DNA of 64,000 bases, from positions 1-64,000 of IMG/VR virus record IMGVR_UViG_3300044946_000048; one strand, written 5' to 3'. Below the pieces are notes generated by a model. That model searched no databases, had not been told where the DNA came from, and worked only from the letters and a program-made list of their open reading frames with translations. Positions 23,369 to 64,000 of this stretch are shown here, piece by piece. How positions within the stretch are numbered: the first letter of the stretch is position 1; each line of letters begins with the position of its first letter. The stretch is from a virus. The translations under genes and the position numbers were made by a program.

Positions 23369-23500
23369 AATTACTCCTGAAATACAAAAGCCGCCAAAGA
23401 GGCGGCTGAAGATTAAGGGTATGGTGTGGGTGCTATCTCTTCCCACCGTAAGCGGAGTCCATTCTAACCCTGAGATTCCCGGACTACCATGCATGCAAAT

Positions 23501-24059: not shown

Positions 24060-24150
24060 TGGCGGAAGGTTTGTGATTTGAACACAAACAACCTTGCGGT
24101 TGACTTAGGTTTAGCAAACCTATACGTTAGCCTGGTTCCGTCAACCTTCC
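24060..24150 (-). tRNA. tRNA-Ser(GCT)
   Basis: TAGGT-TTGCTAA-ACCTA; long variable arm; GCCA. Confidence 0.88.
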
Positions 24151-24509
24151 GTATTCTTAGGTATCATAGCCGGATGAGGCTTTTGAAATTTCTTAACCCA
24201 TCCCGCTTTTGCCTCTTCACTCCACTCAGTAGGCTTTCTTCCAGCCTTACGATTGCAATTGAGATGTGAATAAGCAATATTCTGTAAATCCCAAAACAAG
24301 TTAGGAGAGTTGTCAAGCCACGGTATCTTGTGCTCTATACTAAACTCTTCAACCGTTTCTATTTTCTTAAGGCAGCGAAAACAACTATCTTTTCCGCACT
24401 CTCGTGCTAACGAAAATAAAAGAATTCGATGAAGTCTTGTCGCTGCCGTTGTATAAGGCATGCCTAACTGCGCAAGCTCCTTATCTTTATTCCTATAAAT
24501 TCTAGGCAT
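24141..24509 (-). CDS. tRNA-array HNH endonuclease (paralog of 26402..26890)
   Basis: CFRC...SIEHKIPWL...NIAYSHLNCN; ATG 24509; stop codon overlaps the 5' end of tRNA-Ser. Confidence 0.8.
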   Translation of the reverse strand: MPRIYRNKDKELAQLGMPYTTAATRLHRILLFSLARECGKDSCFRCLKKIETVEEFSIEHKIPWLDNSPNLFWDLQNIAYSHLNCNRKAGRKPTEWSEEAKAGWVKKFQKPHPAMIPKNTEG

Positions 24510-24573
24510 CTTGCCCTCCTCTAAAAGGCAAGTCGGGGATGTTAGAGGCATCCCCAACCTTAATGTACGTACA
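24510..24573 (-). promoter_or_regulatory. Twin-hairpin kissing-loop element (copy 6)
   Basis: TGTACGTACA, then GGGGATG-CCTCTAA-CATCCCC, then CTTGCCTT-TTAGAGG-AGGGCAAG-ATG. Confidence 0.78.
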
Positions 24574-24580
24574 AACTTAT

Positions 24581-24870
24581 TGGCAAACAATAGCCAGGAT
24601 TCTGTTCGGCTTGCGCCGCGACTATCATCCGTCTTTGCCCTTAACCCGGCTATCGTCGCGCTAGACGCGCTCCAGCCCTATTTAAGGTTGCTCCAAGAGT
24701 GGAGTGCCCAGACTTGAATGACAATGCTATGAGAACAGAGGCCCGAAGGCTTGTATGAGAAGCATTGTACCTGGCCTTACCCGTCCGCTTACGCGGCCCG
24801 CAACTTCCACGGCTCTTTGTCTAGTGGAGTCCTGAACTTACCTCGGTTTCCCGCGATAGTCTAGTTTACC
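24581..24870 (-). ncRNA. rnpB: RNase P RNA (catalytic subunit), phage-encoded
   Basis: P1 GGTAAAC/GTTTGCC; P2 GACTATC/GATAGTC; CR-I GAGGTAAGTTCAGGACTCC; GGAGCAA...AAATAGGG; CR-V AACAGAATCCTGGCTA forming P4 with a bulged U. Confidence 0.85.
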
Positions 24871-24871
24871 A

Positions 24872-25417
24872 TTAAGACTTATCTAAACCGCCCAATCCTG
24901 TTGAGCCGCCAGTAAGAAAATTCATCAATGTGTCTACTACTGCTTCCGAATCCGAAACATCCATCTGCTGGCATGTTTGAAATCTATCGTCTGCCCCAAC
25001 CGTGATGTCGCTCTCCGGTCCAATGAAACCATAATACACGTGGCCTAACTTCTCGTCAACAGTTAAAATTCCAATGATGCGATTACCTAGCCGAGCGCCA
25101 TTTATTACTAGGTTATGCTTTTCATAAACCGTCGCGGCGCTGAACGGGATTATGCCGTCTTTTGTTTTCGGCTCTTCCTTGTAACTGAACACTACCGGGT
25201 TATCTTCCTTCTTAACCGTGGTCGCATCCGTCAAGAAATCTCCGAATGTAGCAGTCGTTCGCTCTGCATTCAACACCATGTGAATGACAGTAAAATCCCG
25301 CGAACCACAACTTGCGATATTATACTCAACAACAGGCTTCGGCTCGGGTTGCTGTGGCATAACTGGTGTTGCCAGCGCCAACATAACTCCGAGGATTATG
25401 GCACGGATCGCTTTCAT
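24872..25417 (-). CDS. Secreted/periplasmic hypothetical protein
   Basis: Signal peptide MKAIRAIILGVMLALA. Confidence 0.6.
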   Translation of the reverse strand: MKAIRAIILGVMLALATPVMPQQPEPKPVVEYNIASCGSRDFTVIHMVLNAERTTATFGDFLTDATTVKKEDNPVVFSYKEEPKTKDGIIPFSAATVYEKHNLVINGARLGNRIIGILTVDEKLGHVYYGFIGPESDITVGADDRFQTCQQMDVSDSEAVVDTLMNFLTGGSTGLGGLDKS

Positions 25418-25758: not shown

Positions 25759-26109
25759 TTATTTGATTCCTAATTTCTTCAGCAACAAGTAATTCTTGAT
25801 TGCGTAATATGCTTCCCCGGCTGCAACGACTCCGGAATAAATCATACCAGCTAACCAGACCTTGCTGCCTATAAGCAATCCGATGAATAGATACGCCGCG
25901 CCGCTCAACCAGGTTGCGAACGACTGTCCAACCTTACTAAACAGCCAACGCATTATCGGATTGCCTTCAACAAAACCCTTATTAGCCCCGAGGCCAATCA
26001 TCGTAGTAATACCGTCACCGATGATTGCTAGCAAGCCGAGAACTAAAACACCGAACAGCGCTAACCACGGACCCGCTGGCACAGACATACCGATTGGTGT
26101 AATCATCAT
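25759..26109 (-). CDS. Multi-TM membrane protein (DUF5658-like)
   Basis: DxxTTxxGL...EGNPIM motif with hydrophobic helices. Confidence 0.6.
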   Translation of the reverse strand: MMITPIGMSVPAGPWLALFGVLVLGLLAIIGDGITTMIGLGANKGFVEGNPIMRWLFSKVGQSFATWLSGAAYLFIGLLIGSKVWLAGMIYSGVVAAGEAYYAIKNYLLLKKLGIK

Positions 26110-26371: not shown

Positions 26372-26445
26372 TGGAGCGACGTGCGGTAATCGAAACCGCG
26401 CCTAGTGCTTGGCAAGCACTCGTTCTACCACTATACCAACATCGC
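26372..26445 (-). tRNA. tRNA-Gly(GCC)
   Basis: AGTGC-TTGCCAA-GCACT; TCCA. Confidence 0.9.
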
Positions 26446-26890
26446 TCGGAACTTTTTCTCTCGTATAGTGCTGGCACTCTTTACATAGAGTATGATATCC
26501 AGACCAGTGAGAAGAATTTTTACTAAACTGCACCGTTGGGAGAAACTTCTTATGTCTATTGCACCAACTCATTCCTGACGGGCATTTAATTCTCAATTTC
26601 GAGAACTGCCCGTCTGGACCTGCTGGACGATCAGGCCTGTTACACCAAGTATGAGAAAATGCAATATTCTCCAAATCCCAAAATAATTTTGTGTCTACGT
26701 GCAGCCAAGGTTTCTTATGTTCTATTGTAAGGTCTTCGACCTTCACTATCTTAGACGTACACTTAAAACAAACATCTTCGTTTAACTTTTGAAGACACCT
26801 AAACAAAAGTATCTTTTTAAGTCTCCCCGAGGCTGTACCCCAAGGCATTCCTAGCTGTGATGCCTTCACAGCATTTGAAGTTCCTGACAT
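26402..26890 (-). CDS. tRNA-array HNH endonuclease with C-terminal zinc motif
   Basis: CFKC...TIEHKKPWL...NIAFSHTWCN...WCNRH...CKEC; reads into tRNA-Gly(GCC). Confidence 0.8.
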   Translation of the reverse strand: MSGTSNAVKASQLGMPWGTASGRLKKILLFRCLQKLNEDVCFKCTSKIVKVEDLTIEHKKPWLHVDTKLFWDLENIAFSHTWCNRPDRPAGPDGQFSKLRIKCPSGMSWCNRHKKFLPTVQFSKNSSHWSGYHTLCKECQHYTREKVPSDVGIVVERVLAKH

Positions 26891-26911
26891 GGATACCTTC
26901 CTGTCTTTAAC

Positions 26912-26986
26912 TTGCGCCAAATGGGAGTCGAACCCAATATCACTAGTTTATGAGGCTAGTATGATTATCCGTTTCACTCTGCCGCA
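26912..26986 (-). tRNA. tRNA-CAT (Met/fMet/Ile2 unresolved), no encoded CCA
   Basis: Loop CTCATAA; T-arm GGGTTCGACTCCC; one acceptor-stem mismatch. Confidence 0.65.
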
Positions 26987-27802: not shown

Positions 27803-27878
27803 TGGAGCACCGCATTCGATTCGAACGAATGTGACGAAGGTACAAGCTTCGTATACTAGACCGCTATATGAGCAGTGC
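27803..27878 (-). tRNA. tRNA-Thr(TGT)
   Basis: CGAAG-CTTGTAC-CTTCG; CCA. Confidence 0.88.
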
Positions 27879-27888
27879 TCGAAACTAA

Positions 27889-28024
27889 TTCCAGGCAACA
27901 ATCGCGTCGAGAGTCTCTTGAAGAGGGAGTCGAACCCTGCGCCCGATTTTACTCGGGCACCCAGACCATCCTGGCTATCCCCACGTGGCGGGGATAGAAG
28001 TATCTCAAAACTACGGCACTGGAA
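27889..28024 (-). ncRNA. Y RNA-like molecule with a four-hairpin tRNA-like insert
   Basis: TTCCAG-TGCCGTAG-stem-ATACTTC...TTGTTGC-CTGGAA; same scaffold as the RNAs upstream of the Ro60-like gene; contains a GGTTCGACTCC T-arm. Confidence 0.65.
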
Positions 28025-28031
28025 AATTGTA

Positions 28032-28127
28032 AGTCGCAGGGCAACAGGCGCATCAGGATAGTGTGGGGATTTCACCCACGTTCCTTTTAGGCAAAGAAGT
28101 AACCCGACACTAACGGCACCTACGACT
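28032..28127 (-). ncRNA. Y RNA-like molecule
   Basis: AGTCGTAGG-TGCCGTTAG-TGTCGGG-TTACTTC...CCTGATG-CGC-CTGTTGC-CCTGCGACT. Confidence 0.68.
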
Positions 28128-28132
28128 AAAAT

Positions 28133-28208
28133 TGGCTGTGTCCCTCGGATTCGAACCGAGACCCTAGGCATTAACAGTGCCCTATCATACCAGTTAGACC
28201 AGAACACA
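28133..28208 (-). tRNA. tRNA-Asn(GTT)
   Basis: GGGCA-CTGTTAA-TGCCT; GCCA. Confidence 0.88.
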
Positions 28209-30169: not shown

Positions 30170-30198
30170 ATTCTCTCACAACTTCGAAAACTTGTCAA
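30170..30198 (-). promoter_or_regulatory. Sigma70-type promoter for the tRNA array
   Basis: TTGACA-N17-GAGAAT with upstream AAAATAGT; a sibling TTGACA-N17-TATCAT lies at 30497..30525. Confidence 0.7.
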
Positions 30199-30279: not shown

Positions 30280-30498
30280 TTAGAGTTTCGCCAAAACTAC
30301 CTTAACTCGGGTTGCTACTGCTGTGTATGCGGCCTTTGCATCGGCTGACAACTTACTGCCTACTGCACTGGCTTCAGCTTCGACGGCTGCTACTTCTGCC
30401 GCGACGGCTGTCTTAACCGTGCTTCCTGCCGTGTAGTGCTTGTAGACACCGTACCCGAAACCACCGACTGCTACTGCGGCTGCTAATTCTAAAATCAT
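30280..30498 (-). CDS. Small Ala-rich membrane-anchored protein
   Basis: AAGGAAGG RBS; N-terminal hydrophobic segment. Confidence 0.6.
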   Translation of the reverse strand: MILELAAAVAVGGFGYGVYKHYTAGSTVKTAVAAEVAAVEAEASAVGSKLSADAKAAYTAVATRVKVVLAKL

Positions 30499-30543
30499 GA
30501 TAACCTTCCTTTGGAAACTTGTCAAGTACTATTTTCAACTTTC

Positions 30544-31965: not shown

Positions 31966-32312
31966 ATCAATCCAAAGCGTTCGAGGTGTTGCCATGGCAA
32001 CATCAGGTCCCTTATATAATGTACTAAGTGATGTAACATGACTCCGAGCCACGGCAACATCGAAGCGTTGACGTTGCGTTGACGCGGGATTATCACCAAA
32101 ACTCCGTGTACGTACACGGCAACACGAGTGACATTAGACGTGTACGTACTACCTATATCCATCGATATAAAGGAATTAAAACCTCATGTCAACACAACGT
32201 CAACTATCACGTCAACAGCCTAGTTTTCTAAATCGCTGCTCATACGTTATAAGCAGAAATGTGTTGACACGGAGCGTTGACGCGATATAATACCTCAGGT
32301 CAGAGGAGACTT

Positions 32313-63651: not shown

Positions 63652-63656
63652 TTTTA

Positions 63657-63727
63657 GTGCGGATGCCGTAGGCCAAGGTTACTTCTACGATAAAGGAAAA
63701 ACACCTTGTCCGTTTGTTGCCCCGCAC
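63657..63727 (+). ncRNA. Minimal Y RNA-like molecule
   Basis: GTGCGGA-TGCCGTAG-GCCAAGG-TTACTTC-loop-CCTTGTC-CGT-TTGTTGC-CCCGCAC. Confidence 0.7.
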
Positions 63728-63747
63728 ACAAGTTTAGATGTAAAAGT

Positions 63748-63885
63748 TTGACGAGTACCGTAGATTGGGGTTACTTCTGACTACGAATCAGATAGTGTAG
63801 GTTCGAATCCTGCGGCTCATCCTCATGATGAGTCTAGTGTAATGGTAGCACATCCCGTTACTTCAATCGCTTGTCGTCTCGTCAA
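63748..63885 (+). ncRNA. YrlA-type Y RNA with permuted tRNA-like domain
   Basis: Terminal stem TTGACGAG/CTCGTCAA; anticodon-like arm (CTACGAA), T-arm GTAGGTTCGAATCCTGC, closed acceptor-like stem, then D-arm AGTGTAATGGTAGCAC. Confidence 0.82.
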
Positions 63886-63904
63886 TTAGCTCATGAGGAT
63901 GAAC

Positions 63905-64000
63905 ATGAAGTTAAACAAAGCCACGCAGTTTGCACTAACGAAGTTTACTCACGAAGGCGCACCAGCCTATCGACACACGAATGCAGCCCAGGACCTGAGC
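63905..64000 (+). CDS. Ro60/TROVE-domain protein, 5' fragment
   Basis: GAGG RBS; MKLNK...FTHEGAPA...AAQDL resembles the N-terminus of bacterial TROVE proteins; directly downstream of a YrlA-type RNA. Confidence 0.65.
   Translation, partial: MKLNKATQFALTKFTHEGAPAYRHTNAAQDLS

What the first reader, a model, noticed from the sequence alone, without database searches (positions are those of the whole stretch)
27889..28127. Two more Y-RNA-like molecules hidden in the tRNA array: one scaffold, four different payloads
Seen: two tandem minus-strand units share with the 63.7-kb RNAs the pattern terminal stem - T(G/A)CCGT(T)AG - 7-bp stem - (T/A)TACTTC - variable insert - stem - CG(C/T) - (T/C)TGT(T/C)G(C/T) - terminal stem. 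Stems covary while loops are conserved. The inserts differ: an A-rich loop (63657), a permuted tRNA (63748), two small hairpins including GTGGGTGAAATCCCCAC (28032), and four hairpins including D-like and T-arm elements (27889). Inference: a modular family of Ro60-binding RNAs tethering different effectors, two of them transcribed with tRNAs 35 kb from the protein gene.
Basis: partly seen in the sequence, partly recalled or inferred. Interest (0 to 1): 0.85.

Follow-up and report, generated by a model that had tools for sequence, protein, structure and literature searches.

The report
Phage Y RNAs inside tRNA array
Two small structured RNAs sitting between tRNA genes of an uncultured soil phage belong to the same family as the partner RNAs of the phage's Ro60 protein encoded 36 kb away, and related phages keep such RNAs in the same tRNA-array slot.

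Summary
Observation confirmed; interpretation partly supported.

**Family membership.** I built a covariance model (R1) only from 9 short RNAs upstream of TROVE/Ro60 genes in other phages. In the 64-kb window it hits exactly four places:
- the two RNAs beside the TROVE gene, at 61.3 and 43.5 bits;
- unit D (27887-28026, minus), at 37.2 bits;
- unit C (28033-28126, minus), at 35.1 bits.

All four matches are full-length.

**Structure.** The scaffold stems covary strongly, both across 44 units and across the 18 tRNA-linked units alone.

**Conserved position.** C and D lie 6-8 nt from tRNA-Asn and tRNA-Thr, the usual tRNA-tRNA spacing in this array. The same Asn-to-Thr slot holds such units in four other phage records. 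One of these is a complete 119-kb genome whose TROVE gene lies 40 kb from the slot. The cultured Ralstonia phage RsoM2USA also keeps its units inside tRNA clusters.

**Link to TROVE.** 57 of 73 model-positive viral records carry TROVE. 16 do not, including two complete genomes with terminal repeats. The link is therefore strong but not absolute.

**Not tested.** Ro60 binding, partner recruitment and transcription could not be tested; no RNA run was listed.

**Verdict.** This is a new variant of the known YrlA/YrlB kind: a new genomic context and new inserts. One insert, in unit D, is a rare cloverleaf arranged in a different order.

The parts
28033..28126 (-). Unit C: a Y RNA-like RNA. It has an 8-9 bp terminal stem, GCCGUUAG in the internal loop, an 8-bp second stem and UUACUUC. 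The insert is two small hairpins, the second with stem GUGGG/CCCAC around loop UGAAAUC. The 3' side carries CGC-CUGUUGC.
   Evidence: R1 full-length match of 35.1 bits, E 1.5e-7. Fold -35.5 kcal/mol, z -3.7. Units with near-identical scaffolds, and two with a similar second hairpin, sit in the same tRNA slot in G027, G050 and G003.
27887..28026 (-). Unit D: a Y RNA-like RNA with the same scaffold (GCCGUAG, AUACUUC, CGAUUGUUGC) and an 85-nt insert of four hairpins.
   Evidence: R1 full-length match of 37.2 bits, E 3.6e-8. Fold -59.4 kcal/mol, z -4.3. With filters off the match is only partial.
27912..27996 (-). Insert of unit D: a tRNA-like cloverleaf in the order closed acceptor-like hairpin, D-like arm (loop with GG), long hairpin with a 6-nt loop GUAAAA, then T arm (loop UUCGACU). 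The letters GCCA follow the first strand of the acceptor-like hairpin, partly within the stem as folded.
   Evidence: Fold. ARAGORN calls 'tRNA-???' with a 2-nt anticodon at 27916-27985. No Rfam tRNA match there at E<=10. The G003 unit beside TROVE has the same four-hairpin order, with the stems changed on both sides. The type is rare: 2 of 119 distinct units found by my pattern search.
28133..28208 (-). tRNA-Asn(GUU), upstream neighbour of unit C. The spacer is 6 nt.
   Evidence: ARAGORN; Rfam tRNA 56.8 bits.
27803..27878 (-). tRNA-Thr(UGU), downstream neighbour of unit D. The spacer is 8 nt.
   Evidence: ARAGORN.
63656..63728 (+). Unit A: a minimal Y RNA-like RNA of the YrlB type, with an A-rich loop, upstream of the TROVE gene.
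   Evidence: R1 61.3 bits. Weak full-length Rfam YrlB match, 19.6 bits, E 0.29, far below the gathering score of 97.
63748..63885 (+). Unit B: a YrlA-type Y RNA-like RNA. Its insert runs anticodon-like hairpin, T arm, closed acceptor hairpin, D arm.
   Evidence: R1 43.5 bits. Weak Rfam YrlA match over the tRNA-like part, 17.1 bits, plus a tRNA partial match of 30.9 bits.
63893..64000 (+). Start of the TROVE/Ro60 gene. The ORF is 446 aa and runs to about 65233 of the genome, beyond the window. It has a vWA-type DxSxS motif.
   Evidence: PF05731 matches of 38.4 and 31.5 bits in one open frame. ORF and translation. It is 47-59% identical to 18 phage TROVE proteins.
30170..30198 (-). Promoter-like site (10 of 12, with TG before the -10 hexamer) just upstream of the first tRNA of the array. 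A second site lies at 30497-30525 (11 of 12).
   Evidence: Consensus scan only. The number of sites found does not exceed the shuffles.
23389..23407 (-). Terminator-like hairpin after the last tRNA of the array.
   Evidence: Consensus scan only.
24576..24872 (-). Bacterial class A RNase P RNA-like gene in the same array and on the same strand. It is a possible processing enzyme for the array transcript.
   Evidence: Rfam RF00010, 87 bits, E 1.2e-26, over model positions 1-367. This is below the gathering score of 100.

Best explanation
Units C and D are genuine members of the bacterial and phage Y RNA-like family (the YrlA/YrlB kind), placed inside the phage's tRNA operon instead of next to the Ro60 (TROVE) gene.

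**Shown here**
- They share homology and a covarying scaffold with the TROVE-adjacent RNAs.
- Their position in the tRNA array is conserved across phages.
- The same insert types occur at either locus in different phages.

**Inferred**
1. The array is transcribed as one precursor from a promoter near 30.2 kb.
2. The 3' end of D is set by RNase P cleavage at the 5' end of tRNA-Thr. The enzyme could be the host's or the phage's own RNase P RNA at 24.6-24.9 kb.
3. The 5' end of C is set by 3' processing of tRNA-Asn. The AU-rich 6-8 nt spacers are cut and trimmed back to the terminal stems.
4. The phage Ro60 ring binds the terminal stem and internal loop (GCCGU(U)AG opposite YUGUUGC).
5. The differing inserts give each Ro60 particle a different partner or target. 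Candidate partners are the host exonuclease PNPase and enzymes that recognise tRNA.
6. Placement in the tRNA operon couples the supply of these RNAs to tRNA production.
For: **1. Independent model.** R1 was built from 9 RNAs of other phages. It hits only four sites in the window, all full-length.

Specificity controls:
- 0 hits in 754 kb of unrelated viral DNA.
- In the first 18 TROVE-phage records, all matches lie next to the TROVE gene apart from the distal ones in G002 and G003.

**2. Covariation.**

| Set | Cells paired | Paired when slid | Score | Slid score |
|---|---|---|---|---|
| 44 units | 91.3% | 42-52% | 0.83 | 0.12-0.16 |
| 18 tRNA-linked units | 93.7% | 38-48% | 0.795 | 0.09-0.13 |

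**3. Conserved slot.** Units lie between tRNA-Asn(GUU) and tRNA-Thr(UGU) in:
- G000, this phage (2 units);
- G003 (3 units; TROVE 36 kb away);
- G027 (1 unit);
- G036 (2 units; complete genome with terminal repeats; TROVE 40 kb away, with 3 more units beside it);
- G050 (2 units).

Sources.

**4. Other lineages with tRNA-linked units.**
- G002.
- G047, G057, G032 and G039.
- L245, L260 and L234.
- Ralstonia phage RsoM2USA, where both hits lie in tRNA clusters 5 and 30 kb from TROVE and none lies beside it.
- Microcystis phage Mvi-JY20, arranged TROVE, unit, unit, tRNA-Gln, tRNA-Arg, tRNA-Met.

**5. Loci are interchangeable.** Window unit D matches the TROVE-adjacent unit of G003. Window unit B matches a unit in G003's array.

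**6. Spacing.** The spacers around C and D are 6, 6 and 8 nt. tRNA-tRNA spacers in this array are mostly 4-10 nt.

**7. Literature (passages read).**
- Rsr binds YrlA and YrlB (PMC4201824).
- A phage Ro60 binds two phage Y RNA-like RNAs and forms a complex with host PNPase (PMC12135203).
Against: - No expression or binding data. No RNA run is listed.
- C and D have no Rfam YrlA or YrlB match at E<=10. A and B are far below the gathering scores.
- The literal published motif GNCGAAN0-1G is not matched exactly: these units have U where it has A.
- 16 of 73 model-positive viral records have no TROVE gene in the held record. They include G065 and G072 (complete, with terminal repeats), G032 and G083 (estimated 100% complete) and G061 (88%). 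A phage Ro60 is therefore not always the partner.
- Promoter-like and terminator-like sites are consensus matches only, and the promoter count does not exceed the shuffles.
- No RtcB, RNA ligase or CCA-adding enzyme was found in the 88.6 kb held, so no phage-encoded repair partner is evident.
- With filters off, D is recovered only in part.
Confidence: 0.7

Rival explanations
1. The scaffold RNAs in the tRNA array work without the phage Ro60. They might bind the host's own Ro60/Rsr, or bind host PNPase or another RNase directly as decoys or guides. On this reading their kinship with the TROVE-adjacent RNAs reflects common descent rather than a shared protein partner.
For: - 16 of 73 model-positive records lack TROVE, including complete genomes G065 and G072.
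- G032 carries a single unit after tRNA-Asn, followed by a terminator, and no TROVE match by profile or by protein search.
- The phiLo study reports that its two Y RNA-like RNAs bind PNPase without Ro60 in gel shifts (PMC12135203, passages).
Against: - This phage does encode an intact-looking TROVE protein.
- C and D keep the same internal-loop letters as A and B.
- Insert types move between the two loci in related phages.
- 53 of 62 and 4 of 11 model-positive records carry TROVE. Among records that matched the same sequence patterns but not the model, 0 of 6 and 1 of 33 do.
Confidence: 0.2
2. C and D are decaying duplicates of the TROVE-adjacent RNAs, or leftovers of an older arrangement in which TROVE lay inside the tRNA array. 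On this reading they have no present function.
For: - In 7 of 20 loci scanned, tRNA genes lie within about 3 kb of the TROVE gene. A common origin inside an array is therefore plausible.
- The literal Ro60-site motif deviates from the published one.
Against: - tRNA-linked units on their own keep 93.7% pairing with changes on both sides in 16 of 17 pairs.
- The slot is occupied in five phage records whose TROVE proteins are only about 57% identical where known.
- Insert hairpins are kept through compensatory changes.
Confidence: 0.05
3. They are tRNA-processing or spacer elements, or aberrant tRNA genes, unrelated to Ro60 biology.
For: - ARAGORN calls a 'tRNA-???' inside D.
- They lie in a tRNA array that also holds an RNase P RNA-like gene.
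Against: - No Rfam tRNA match in C or D.
- D's anticodon-like loop has 6 nt.
- The scaffold is that of the TROVE-adjacent RNAs and co-occurs with TROVE.
Confidence: 0.05

Closest known systems
YrlB (Y RNA-like B; Rfam RF02565; Salmonella and M. smegmatis; Chen et al. 2014, PMC4201824)
   Same: - Terminal stem made of the 5' and 3' ends, an internal loop with a G-N-C-G-A/U-A-G-like 5' strand, a second stem, then a pyrimidine-rich (U)UAC(A/U)UC segment and a small loop.
- Unit A aligns over the whole Rfam model.
- Unit C is this design plus one extra hairpin.
   Different: - Scores are far below the gathering threshold (19.6 against 97 bits). C has no Rfam match at all.
- C lies 36 kb from the Ro60 gene, on the other strand, between tRNA genes.
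YrlA (Y RNA-like A; Rfam RF02553; Chen et al. 2014). I recall a solved structure of its tRNA-like domain but did not check it.
   Same: - A Ro60-site scaffold carrying a tRNA-like module with a T arm, a closed acceptor-like hairpin and a D arm.
- Unit B has this order: T, acceptor, D.
   Different: - Unit D has the order acceptor hairpin, D-like arm, closed anticodon-like hairpin, T arm. The cloverleaf is opened between the T arm and the acceptor rather than at the anticodon arm.
- This order is rare: 2 of 119 units.
- Chen et al. reported only candidates within 4 kb of Ro60 and discarded hits overlapping tandem tRNA genes (passage read).
[quoted passage not shown] 2014, passages read)
   Same: - A 7-bp acceptor-like stem closed by a loop.
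- In D the stem pairs UAUCCCC with GGGGAUA, and the letters GCCA follow the first strand.
   Different: - Cleavage of D is not tested.
- The CCA letters are encoded rather than added.
- They are absent from the G003 counterpart, so they may be there by chance.
Thermus phage phiLo Ro60 with Yrl1 and Yrl2 (PMC12135203)
   Same: A phage-encoded Ro60 with two phage-encoded Y RNA-like RNAs. Binding to Ro60 and to host PNPase was shown in vitro.
   Different: The phiLo RNAs lie directly upstream of the Ro60 gene. The passages I read describe no copies in a tRNA array.
Metazoan Y RNAs and D. radiodurans Yrn1
   Same: A modular plan: a Ro60-binding stem formed by the two ends, plus a variable effector part.
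   Different: No detectable sequence match: there is no Rfam Y_RNA hit at E<=10. The conserved helix letters differ.

Membership tests
Bacterial/phage Y RNA-like RNAs (YrlA/YrlB kind) | Homology in sequence and structure to RNAs encoded next to Ro60/TROVE genes | tested here: met
   Model R1, built from 9 TROVE-upstream RNAs of other phages, matches C at 35.1 bits and D at 37.2 bits, both full-length. It finds 0 hits in 754 kb of control DNA.
Bacterial/phage Y RNA-like RNAs (YrlA/YrlB kind) | Terminal stem of the 5' and 3' ends, an internal loop and a second stem, supported by covariation | tested here: met
   91.3% of cells paired and 16 of 17 pairs changed on both sides. For tRNA-linked units alone, 93.7% paired.
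Bacterial/phage Y RNA-like RNAs (YrlA/YrlB kind) | The 5' motif GNCGAAN0-1G (Chen et al. 2014) | tested here: inconclusive
   C has GCCGUUAG and D has GCCGUAG, with U where the motif has A. Other units matched by the same model carry GGCGAAG, GGUGAAG or GGCGUAG.
Bacterial/phage Y RNA-like RNAs (YrlA/YrlB kind) | Encoded within 4 kb of the Ro60 gene on the same strand (reporting criterion of Chen et al. 2014) | tested here: not met
   C and D are 35.8 kb from the TROVE start and on the opposite strand. A and B meet the criterion.
Bacterial/phage Y RNA-like RNAs (YrlA/YrlB kind) | Rfam RF02553 or RF02565 at the gathering score | tested here: not met
   C and D have no match at E<=10. A scores 19.6 against 97 and B 17.1 against 69. 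None of 20 related TROVE loci reaches the gathering score either, so the Rfam models do not cover this phage branch.
Bacterial/phage Y RNA-like RNAs (YrlA/YrlB kind) | Bound by Ro60/Rsr in vivo or in vitro | not testable with these tools
   No RNA or pull-down data. No RNA run is listed.
YrlA subtype | A tRNA-like module in the order T arm, acceptor hairpin, D arm | tested here: not met
   D has the order acceptor hairpin, D-like arm, 6-nt-loop hairpin, T arm. C has no T arm.
tRNA | A cloverleaf scoring as tRNA with a 7-nt anticodon loop | tested here: not met
   No RF00005 match in 27887-28126 at E<=10. ARAGORN gives 'tRNA-???' with a 2-nt anticodon.

The most novel reading that the evidence does not exclude
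Phage tRNA arrays may double as production lines for Ro60 particles.

Unit D would be a complete cloverleaf opened at the junction of the T arm and the acceptor stem. Its acceptor hairpin carries an encoded discriminator base plus CCA. RNase P, possibly the phage's own ribozyme 3 kb downstream in the same operon, would cut this loop. The product would be a two-piece RNA with a true tRNA 5' end and a CCA 3' end, still held on the Ro60 scaffold. M. smegmatis YrlA is processed in a similar way.

This would let the phage Ro60 particle pose as a tRNA. It could then recruit or block host enzymes that act on tRNA, such as anticodon nucleases, CCA-adding or repair enzymes, or PNPase, and so protect the phage's own 34 tRNAs. 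The TROVE-less phages that carry single units would use the host's Ro60 in the same way.
Probability: 0.12. Interest if true: 0.85.

Novelty: new variant of a known kind. Interest (0 to 1): 0.6.

Why it matters
**What was known.** Y RNA-like RNAs beside bacterial and phage Ro60 genes were described in 2014. That survey kept only candidates within 4 kb of Ro60 and threw out anything overlapping tandem tRNA genes. Copies inside tRNA arrays were therefore invisible to it by design.

**What this adds.**
- A clade of environmental phages, and at least one cultured jumbo phage, keep members of this family inside their tRNA operons, in a conserved slot.
- One phage can carry four or five such RNAs with different inserts, spread over two loci.
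- Some complete phage genomes carry the RNA without any Ro60 gene.

**Why it helps.** What phage Ro60 does is an open question. These results link it to tRNA supply and processing and give concrete RNAs and mutants to test. Model R1 also finds these RNAs where the Rfam models do not.

**Limits.** My searches of the held library found no paper describing Y RNA-like genes in phage tRNA arrays. I could not see the supplementary tables of Chen et al. 2014, which list their phage candidates.

Tried and rejected
- **Rfam on the finding.** No Y RNA family matched. Only tRNAs and noise such as isrK at 12 bits appeared.
- **Megablast of the array against cultured phages.** No match.
- **First IMG/VR pattern scan, 14 specified bases.** All 80 loci it returned were chance matches, with 0 R1 hits. 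I kept this as a negative control.
- **Sequencing runs.** No RNA holder was listed, so expression could not be examined. I did not lay reads.
- **Repair partners in the genome.** RtcB, RNA ligase and PolyA_pol/CCA-adding families were not found in the 88.6 kb held. The record is estimated 83% complete.
- **Filters-off search.** It added no new sites in 22.5-32.5 kb. It truncated long units at 116 nt: D fell to 7 bits and the L023 unit to 23.8 bits. I treat this as a length limit of that mode, not as evidence against D.
- **A 71-nt palindrome-like stretch at 31988-32058(-).** My pattern script picked it up. It is not a family member: 5.7 bits, E 6.8.
- **The GCCA letters in D's acceptor hairpin.** They are absent from the G003 counterpart. 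I keep them only for the novel reading.
- **The genome search first-look filter.** It listed only 2 of the 4 window sites. I therefore did not use it for counts where cmsearch on loci was possible.
- **Reviews by Sim and Wolin.** Not held. What I say about the general modular view of Y RNAs is partly recalled.
- **Protein fold, atlas and homolog searches.** Not used. The TROVE assignment was clear from Pfam.
Full report
**What is there**

The window is the first 64 kb of an 88.6-kb uncultured virus record, estimated 83% complete. Soil metagenome runs hold parts of it.

A minus-strand array of 34 tRNA genes runs from 30150 to 23501. Between tRNA-Asn(GUU) (28208-28133) and tRNA-Thr(UGU) (27878-27803) lie two tandem non-tRNA units:
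- C = 28126-28033;
- D = 28026-27887.

The spacers around them are 6, 6 and 8 nt. tRNA-tRNA spacers in this array are mostly 4-10 nt.

At 63656-63728 (A) and 63748-63885 (B), on the plus strand, two further units lie directly upstream of a 446-aa TROVE/Ro60 gene. That gene starts at 63893 and runs off the window.

All four units share one layout: terminal stem, U, a 2-bp mini-helix, CGU(U)AG, a 7-8 bp stem, (U/A)UACUUC, an insert, the returning stem strand, CG(C/U), YUGU(U/C)G(C/U), and the returning terminal-stem strand.

- A regular expression for the 5' half finds exactly these four sites in the window on both strands.
- All four fold into the same outline. C has z -3.7 and D has z -4.3 against shuffles.

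**Independent test of kinship**

I collected 18 viral loci whose TROVE proteins are 47-59% identical to this one. All carry tandem units of this outline upstream of TROVE, with many different inserts.

From 9 short units of 7 of those phages, none from this genome, I built covariance model R1.

- In the window, R1 finds four matches at E<=10: A 61.3, B 43.5, D 37.2 and C 35.1 bits. All are full-length.
- Control: 80 viral loci caught by a loose chance-prone pattern (754 kb) give 0 matches at E<=0.01.
- With filters off, C is unchanged. D is recovered only as a 116-nt piece of 7 bits. A 126-nt unit of L023 is cut to the same 116 nt. I take this as a length cap of that mode; that is an inference.

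**Structure**

Figures are for the named structure against the same structure with 3' partners slid by 1-3 columns.

| Set | Cells paired | Paired when slid | Covariation score | Slid score | Pairs changed on both sides |
|---|---|---|---|---|---|
| 44 matched units | 91.3% | 42-52% | 0.83 | 0.12-0.16 | 16 of 17 |
| 18 tRNA-linked units only | 93.7% | 38-48% | 0.795 | 0.09-0.13 | 16 of 17 |

- The 2-bp mini-helix covaries: GC/AU at one position and GC/CG at the other.
- These alignments were fitted to the model, which favours the structure. The slid controls share that bias only in part.

**A conserved place in the tRNA array**

Whole-record searches of the 18 TROVE relatives put every R1 match next to TROVE, apart from distal matches in two records.

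- **G003.** Its TROVE protein is 57% identical. Its tRNA array is in nearly the same gene order as here. Between tRNA-Asn(GUU) and tRNA-Thr(UGU), 36 kb from TROVE, it has two R1 matches plus a third, YrlA-type unit (19.1 bits with filters off).
- **G002.** One unit lies between tRNA-Met and tRNA-Glu, 12 kb from TROVE.

A pattern scan for this phage's scaffold subtype found 45 stretches in 44 records. 12 loci in 11 records are R1-positive at E<=0.001. Among them:

| Record | Position of units | Note |
|---|---|---|
| G027 | Asn-to-Thr slot, 1 unit | |
| G036 | Asn-to-Thr slot, 2 units | Complete, terminal repeats, 118.8 kb; TROVE 40 kb away with 3 more units beside it |
| G050 | Asn-to-Thr slot, 2 units | |
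| G047, G057 | One unit between tRNA-Arg(UCG) and tRNA-Asn | |
| G032 | One unit after tRNA-Asn | Followed by a terminator hairpin |
| G039 | One unit beside a tRNA cluster | |

Units with the commoner GGUGAAG scaffold also lie inside or against tRNA genes in L245, L260 and L234.

Cultured phages:
- Ralstonia phage RsoM2USA has both its matches inside tRNA clusters, 5 and 30 kb from TROVE, and none beside TROVE.
- Microcystis phage Mvi-JY20 is arranged TROVE, unit, unit, tRNA-Gln, tRNA-Arg, tRNA-Met.
- CcrColossus, Bambus, Tenjo and crAss001 have their matches next to TROVE.

In 7 of 20 TROVE loci scanned, ordinary tRNA genes lie within the roughly 3-kb flanks.

**Inserts are modules that move**

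- Unit D's insert is a closed acceptor-like hairpin, a D-like arm, a hairpin with a 6-nt R-U-A-A-A-A loop, and a T arm. It has the same order as the second TROVE-adjacent unit of G003, with stems changed on both sides.
- The window's TROVE-adjacent unit B shares its D arm and T loop with the third array unit of G003.
- Unit C's scaffold is nearly identical to a G003 array unit with a different, longer insert. One stem pair differs by a C-G to U-A change.
- C's second hairpin recurs in related form in G027 and G050.
- By my pattern-based census of 119 distinct units, 39 have an early T loop (the YrlA order), 75 have none, and 5 have a late one. Only window D and the G003 unit are full four-hairpin cloverleaves. 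This census uses a hand-made pattern, not the model.

**Link with TROVE**

| Scan | R1-positive records with TROVE | R1-negative records with TROVE |
|---|---|---|
| Scan 1 | 4 of 11 | 1 of 33 |
| Scan 2 (GGUGAAG type) | 53 of 62 | 0 of 6 |

For scan 2: 70 stretches came from 69 records and 68 were searched, because L194 was not held. Three of the 62 R1-positive records are training records.

- Among scan-2 records estimated at 90% complete or more, 19 of 22 carry TROVE.
- The R1-positive records that lack TROVE include G065 and G072 (terminal repeats, so complete), G083 and G032 (estimated 100%, linear) and G061 (88%).
- A protein search with this phage's TROVE sequence was also empty for G032, G061, G047, G039 and G027. 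The tool warns that an empty answer proves little.
- The association is therefore strong but not obligatory. The other 11 TROVE-less R1-positive records are estimated at 70% complete or less.

**How it most likely works**

*Shown:* family membership, the covarying scaffold, the conserved array slot, and the interchange of loci.

*From the literature (passages read):*
- Bacterial Rsr binds YrlA and YrlB. YrlA is recognised by tRNA enzymes. M. smegmatis YrlA is cut by RNase P and receives CCA (PMC4201824).
- A Thermus phage Ro60 binds two adjacent phage Y RNA-like RNAs and assembles with host PNPase in vitro (PMC12135203).

*Inferred:*
- The array is one transcript. There are promoter-like sites at 30170-30198 and 30497-30525 and a terminator-like hairpin at 23389-23407. 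These are consensus matches only.
- RNase P cleavage at tRNA-Thr and 3' processing of tRNA-Asn free the C-D pair. The AU-rich spacers are then cut and trimmed to the stems.
- The array also holds a class A RNase P RNA-like gene at 24576-24872: 87 bits, E 1.2e-26, below the gathering score of 100.
- The phage Ro60 then binds the scaffold, and each insert supplies a different contact.
- No phage RtcB, RNA ligase or CCA-adding enzyme was found.

**Comparison with what is known**

The closest known families are YrlB (units A and C) and YrlA (unit B).

- C and D fail two operational criteria of that family: the Rfam gathering scores and the within-4-kb, same-strand rule.
- None of 20 related phage TROVE loci reaches the Rfam scores either, so the Rfam models simply do not reach this branch.
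- Chen et al. state that they discarded hits overlapping tandem tRNA genes and reported only candidates within 4 kb of Ro60.
- Five full-text searches found no paper on Y RNA-like genes in phage tRNA arrays. I could not see the supplements of Chen et al.

**Verdict**

The feature is real. It is a new variant of a known kind: Y RNA-like RNAs housed in phage tRNA operons, with new insert types. Function and protein partner remain inferred.

Noticed in passing
window 24576-24872 (-): A bacterial class A RNase P RNA-like gene lies inside the tRNA array. It scores 87 bits, E 1.2e-26, over the full model, below the Rfam gathering score of 100.
   Followed up: partly
window 24141-24590 (-) and 26402-26920 (-): HNH endonuclease ORFs are interleaved with the tRNA genes (Pfam PF01844, 30.7 and 21.8 bits). 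A DUF5658 ORF lies at 25759-26109.
   Followed up: partly
L009:2857-2953, L010:2857-2953, L020:2631-2736: Units in three TROVE phage loci share a conserved insert. It is a GC-rich hairpin flanked by GGAAGCGGG and GCAGCGCACGA-like strands. I could not name it, and it may be another recurring payload class.
   Followed up: no
L004:1660-2053 and L017:4059-4249: A tmRNA gene (113 bits) and a permuted tmRNA gene (73 bits) lie within about 3 kb of the TROVE gene in two other phages.
   Followed up: no
L024:5545-5625 (-): In G002, just upstream of the array-embedded unit, there is a tRNA-Met-like sequence with a CAU anticodon loop and an odd, longer T loop. ARAGORN did not call it.
   Followed up: no
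G065, G072, G083, G032, G061 (loci L196, L205, L216, L161, L191): Complete or nearly complete phage records carry a single strong scaffold unit (48-65 bits) but no TROVE gene. In G032 the unit ends a five-tRNA operon and is followed by a terminator.
   Followed up: partly
L191:2820-2870 (-): Directly upstream of the orphan unit in G061 lies a short tRNA-like piece: a T arm with a GGUUCGAAUC loop and flanking complementary strands. ARAGORN does not call it as a tRNA.
   Followed up: no
window 63748-63885 and L165:8406-8546: The YrlA-type units carry the GUUACUU motif twice, once on each side of the tRNA-like module. This is conserved between this phage and G036. Its meaning is unknown.
   Followed up: no
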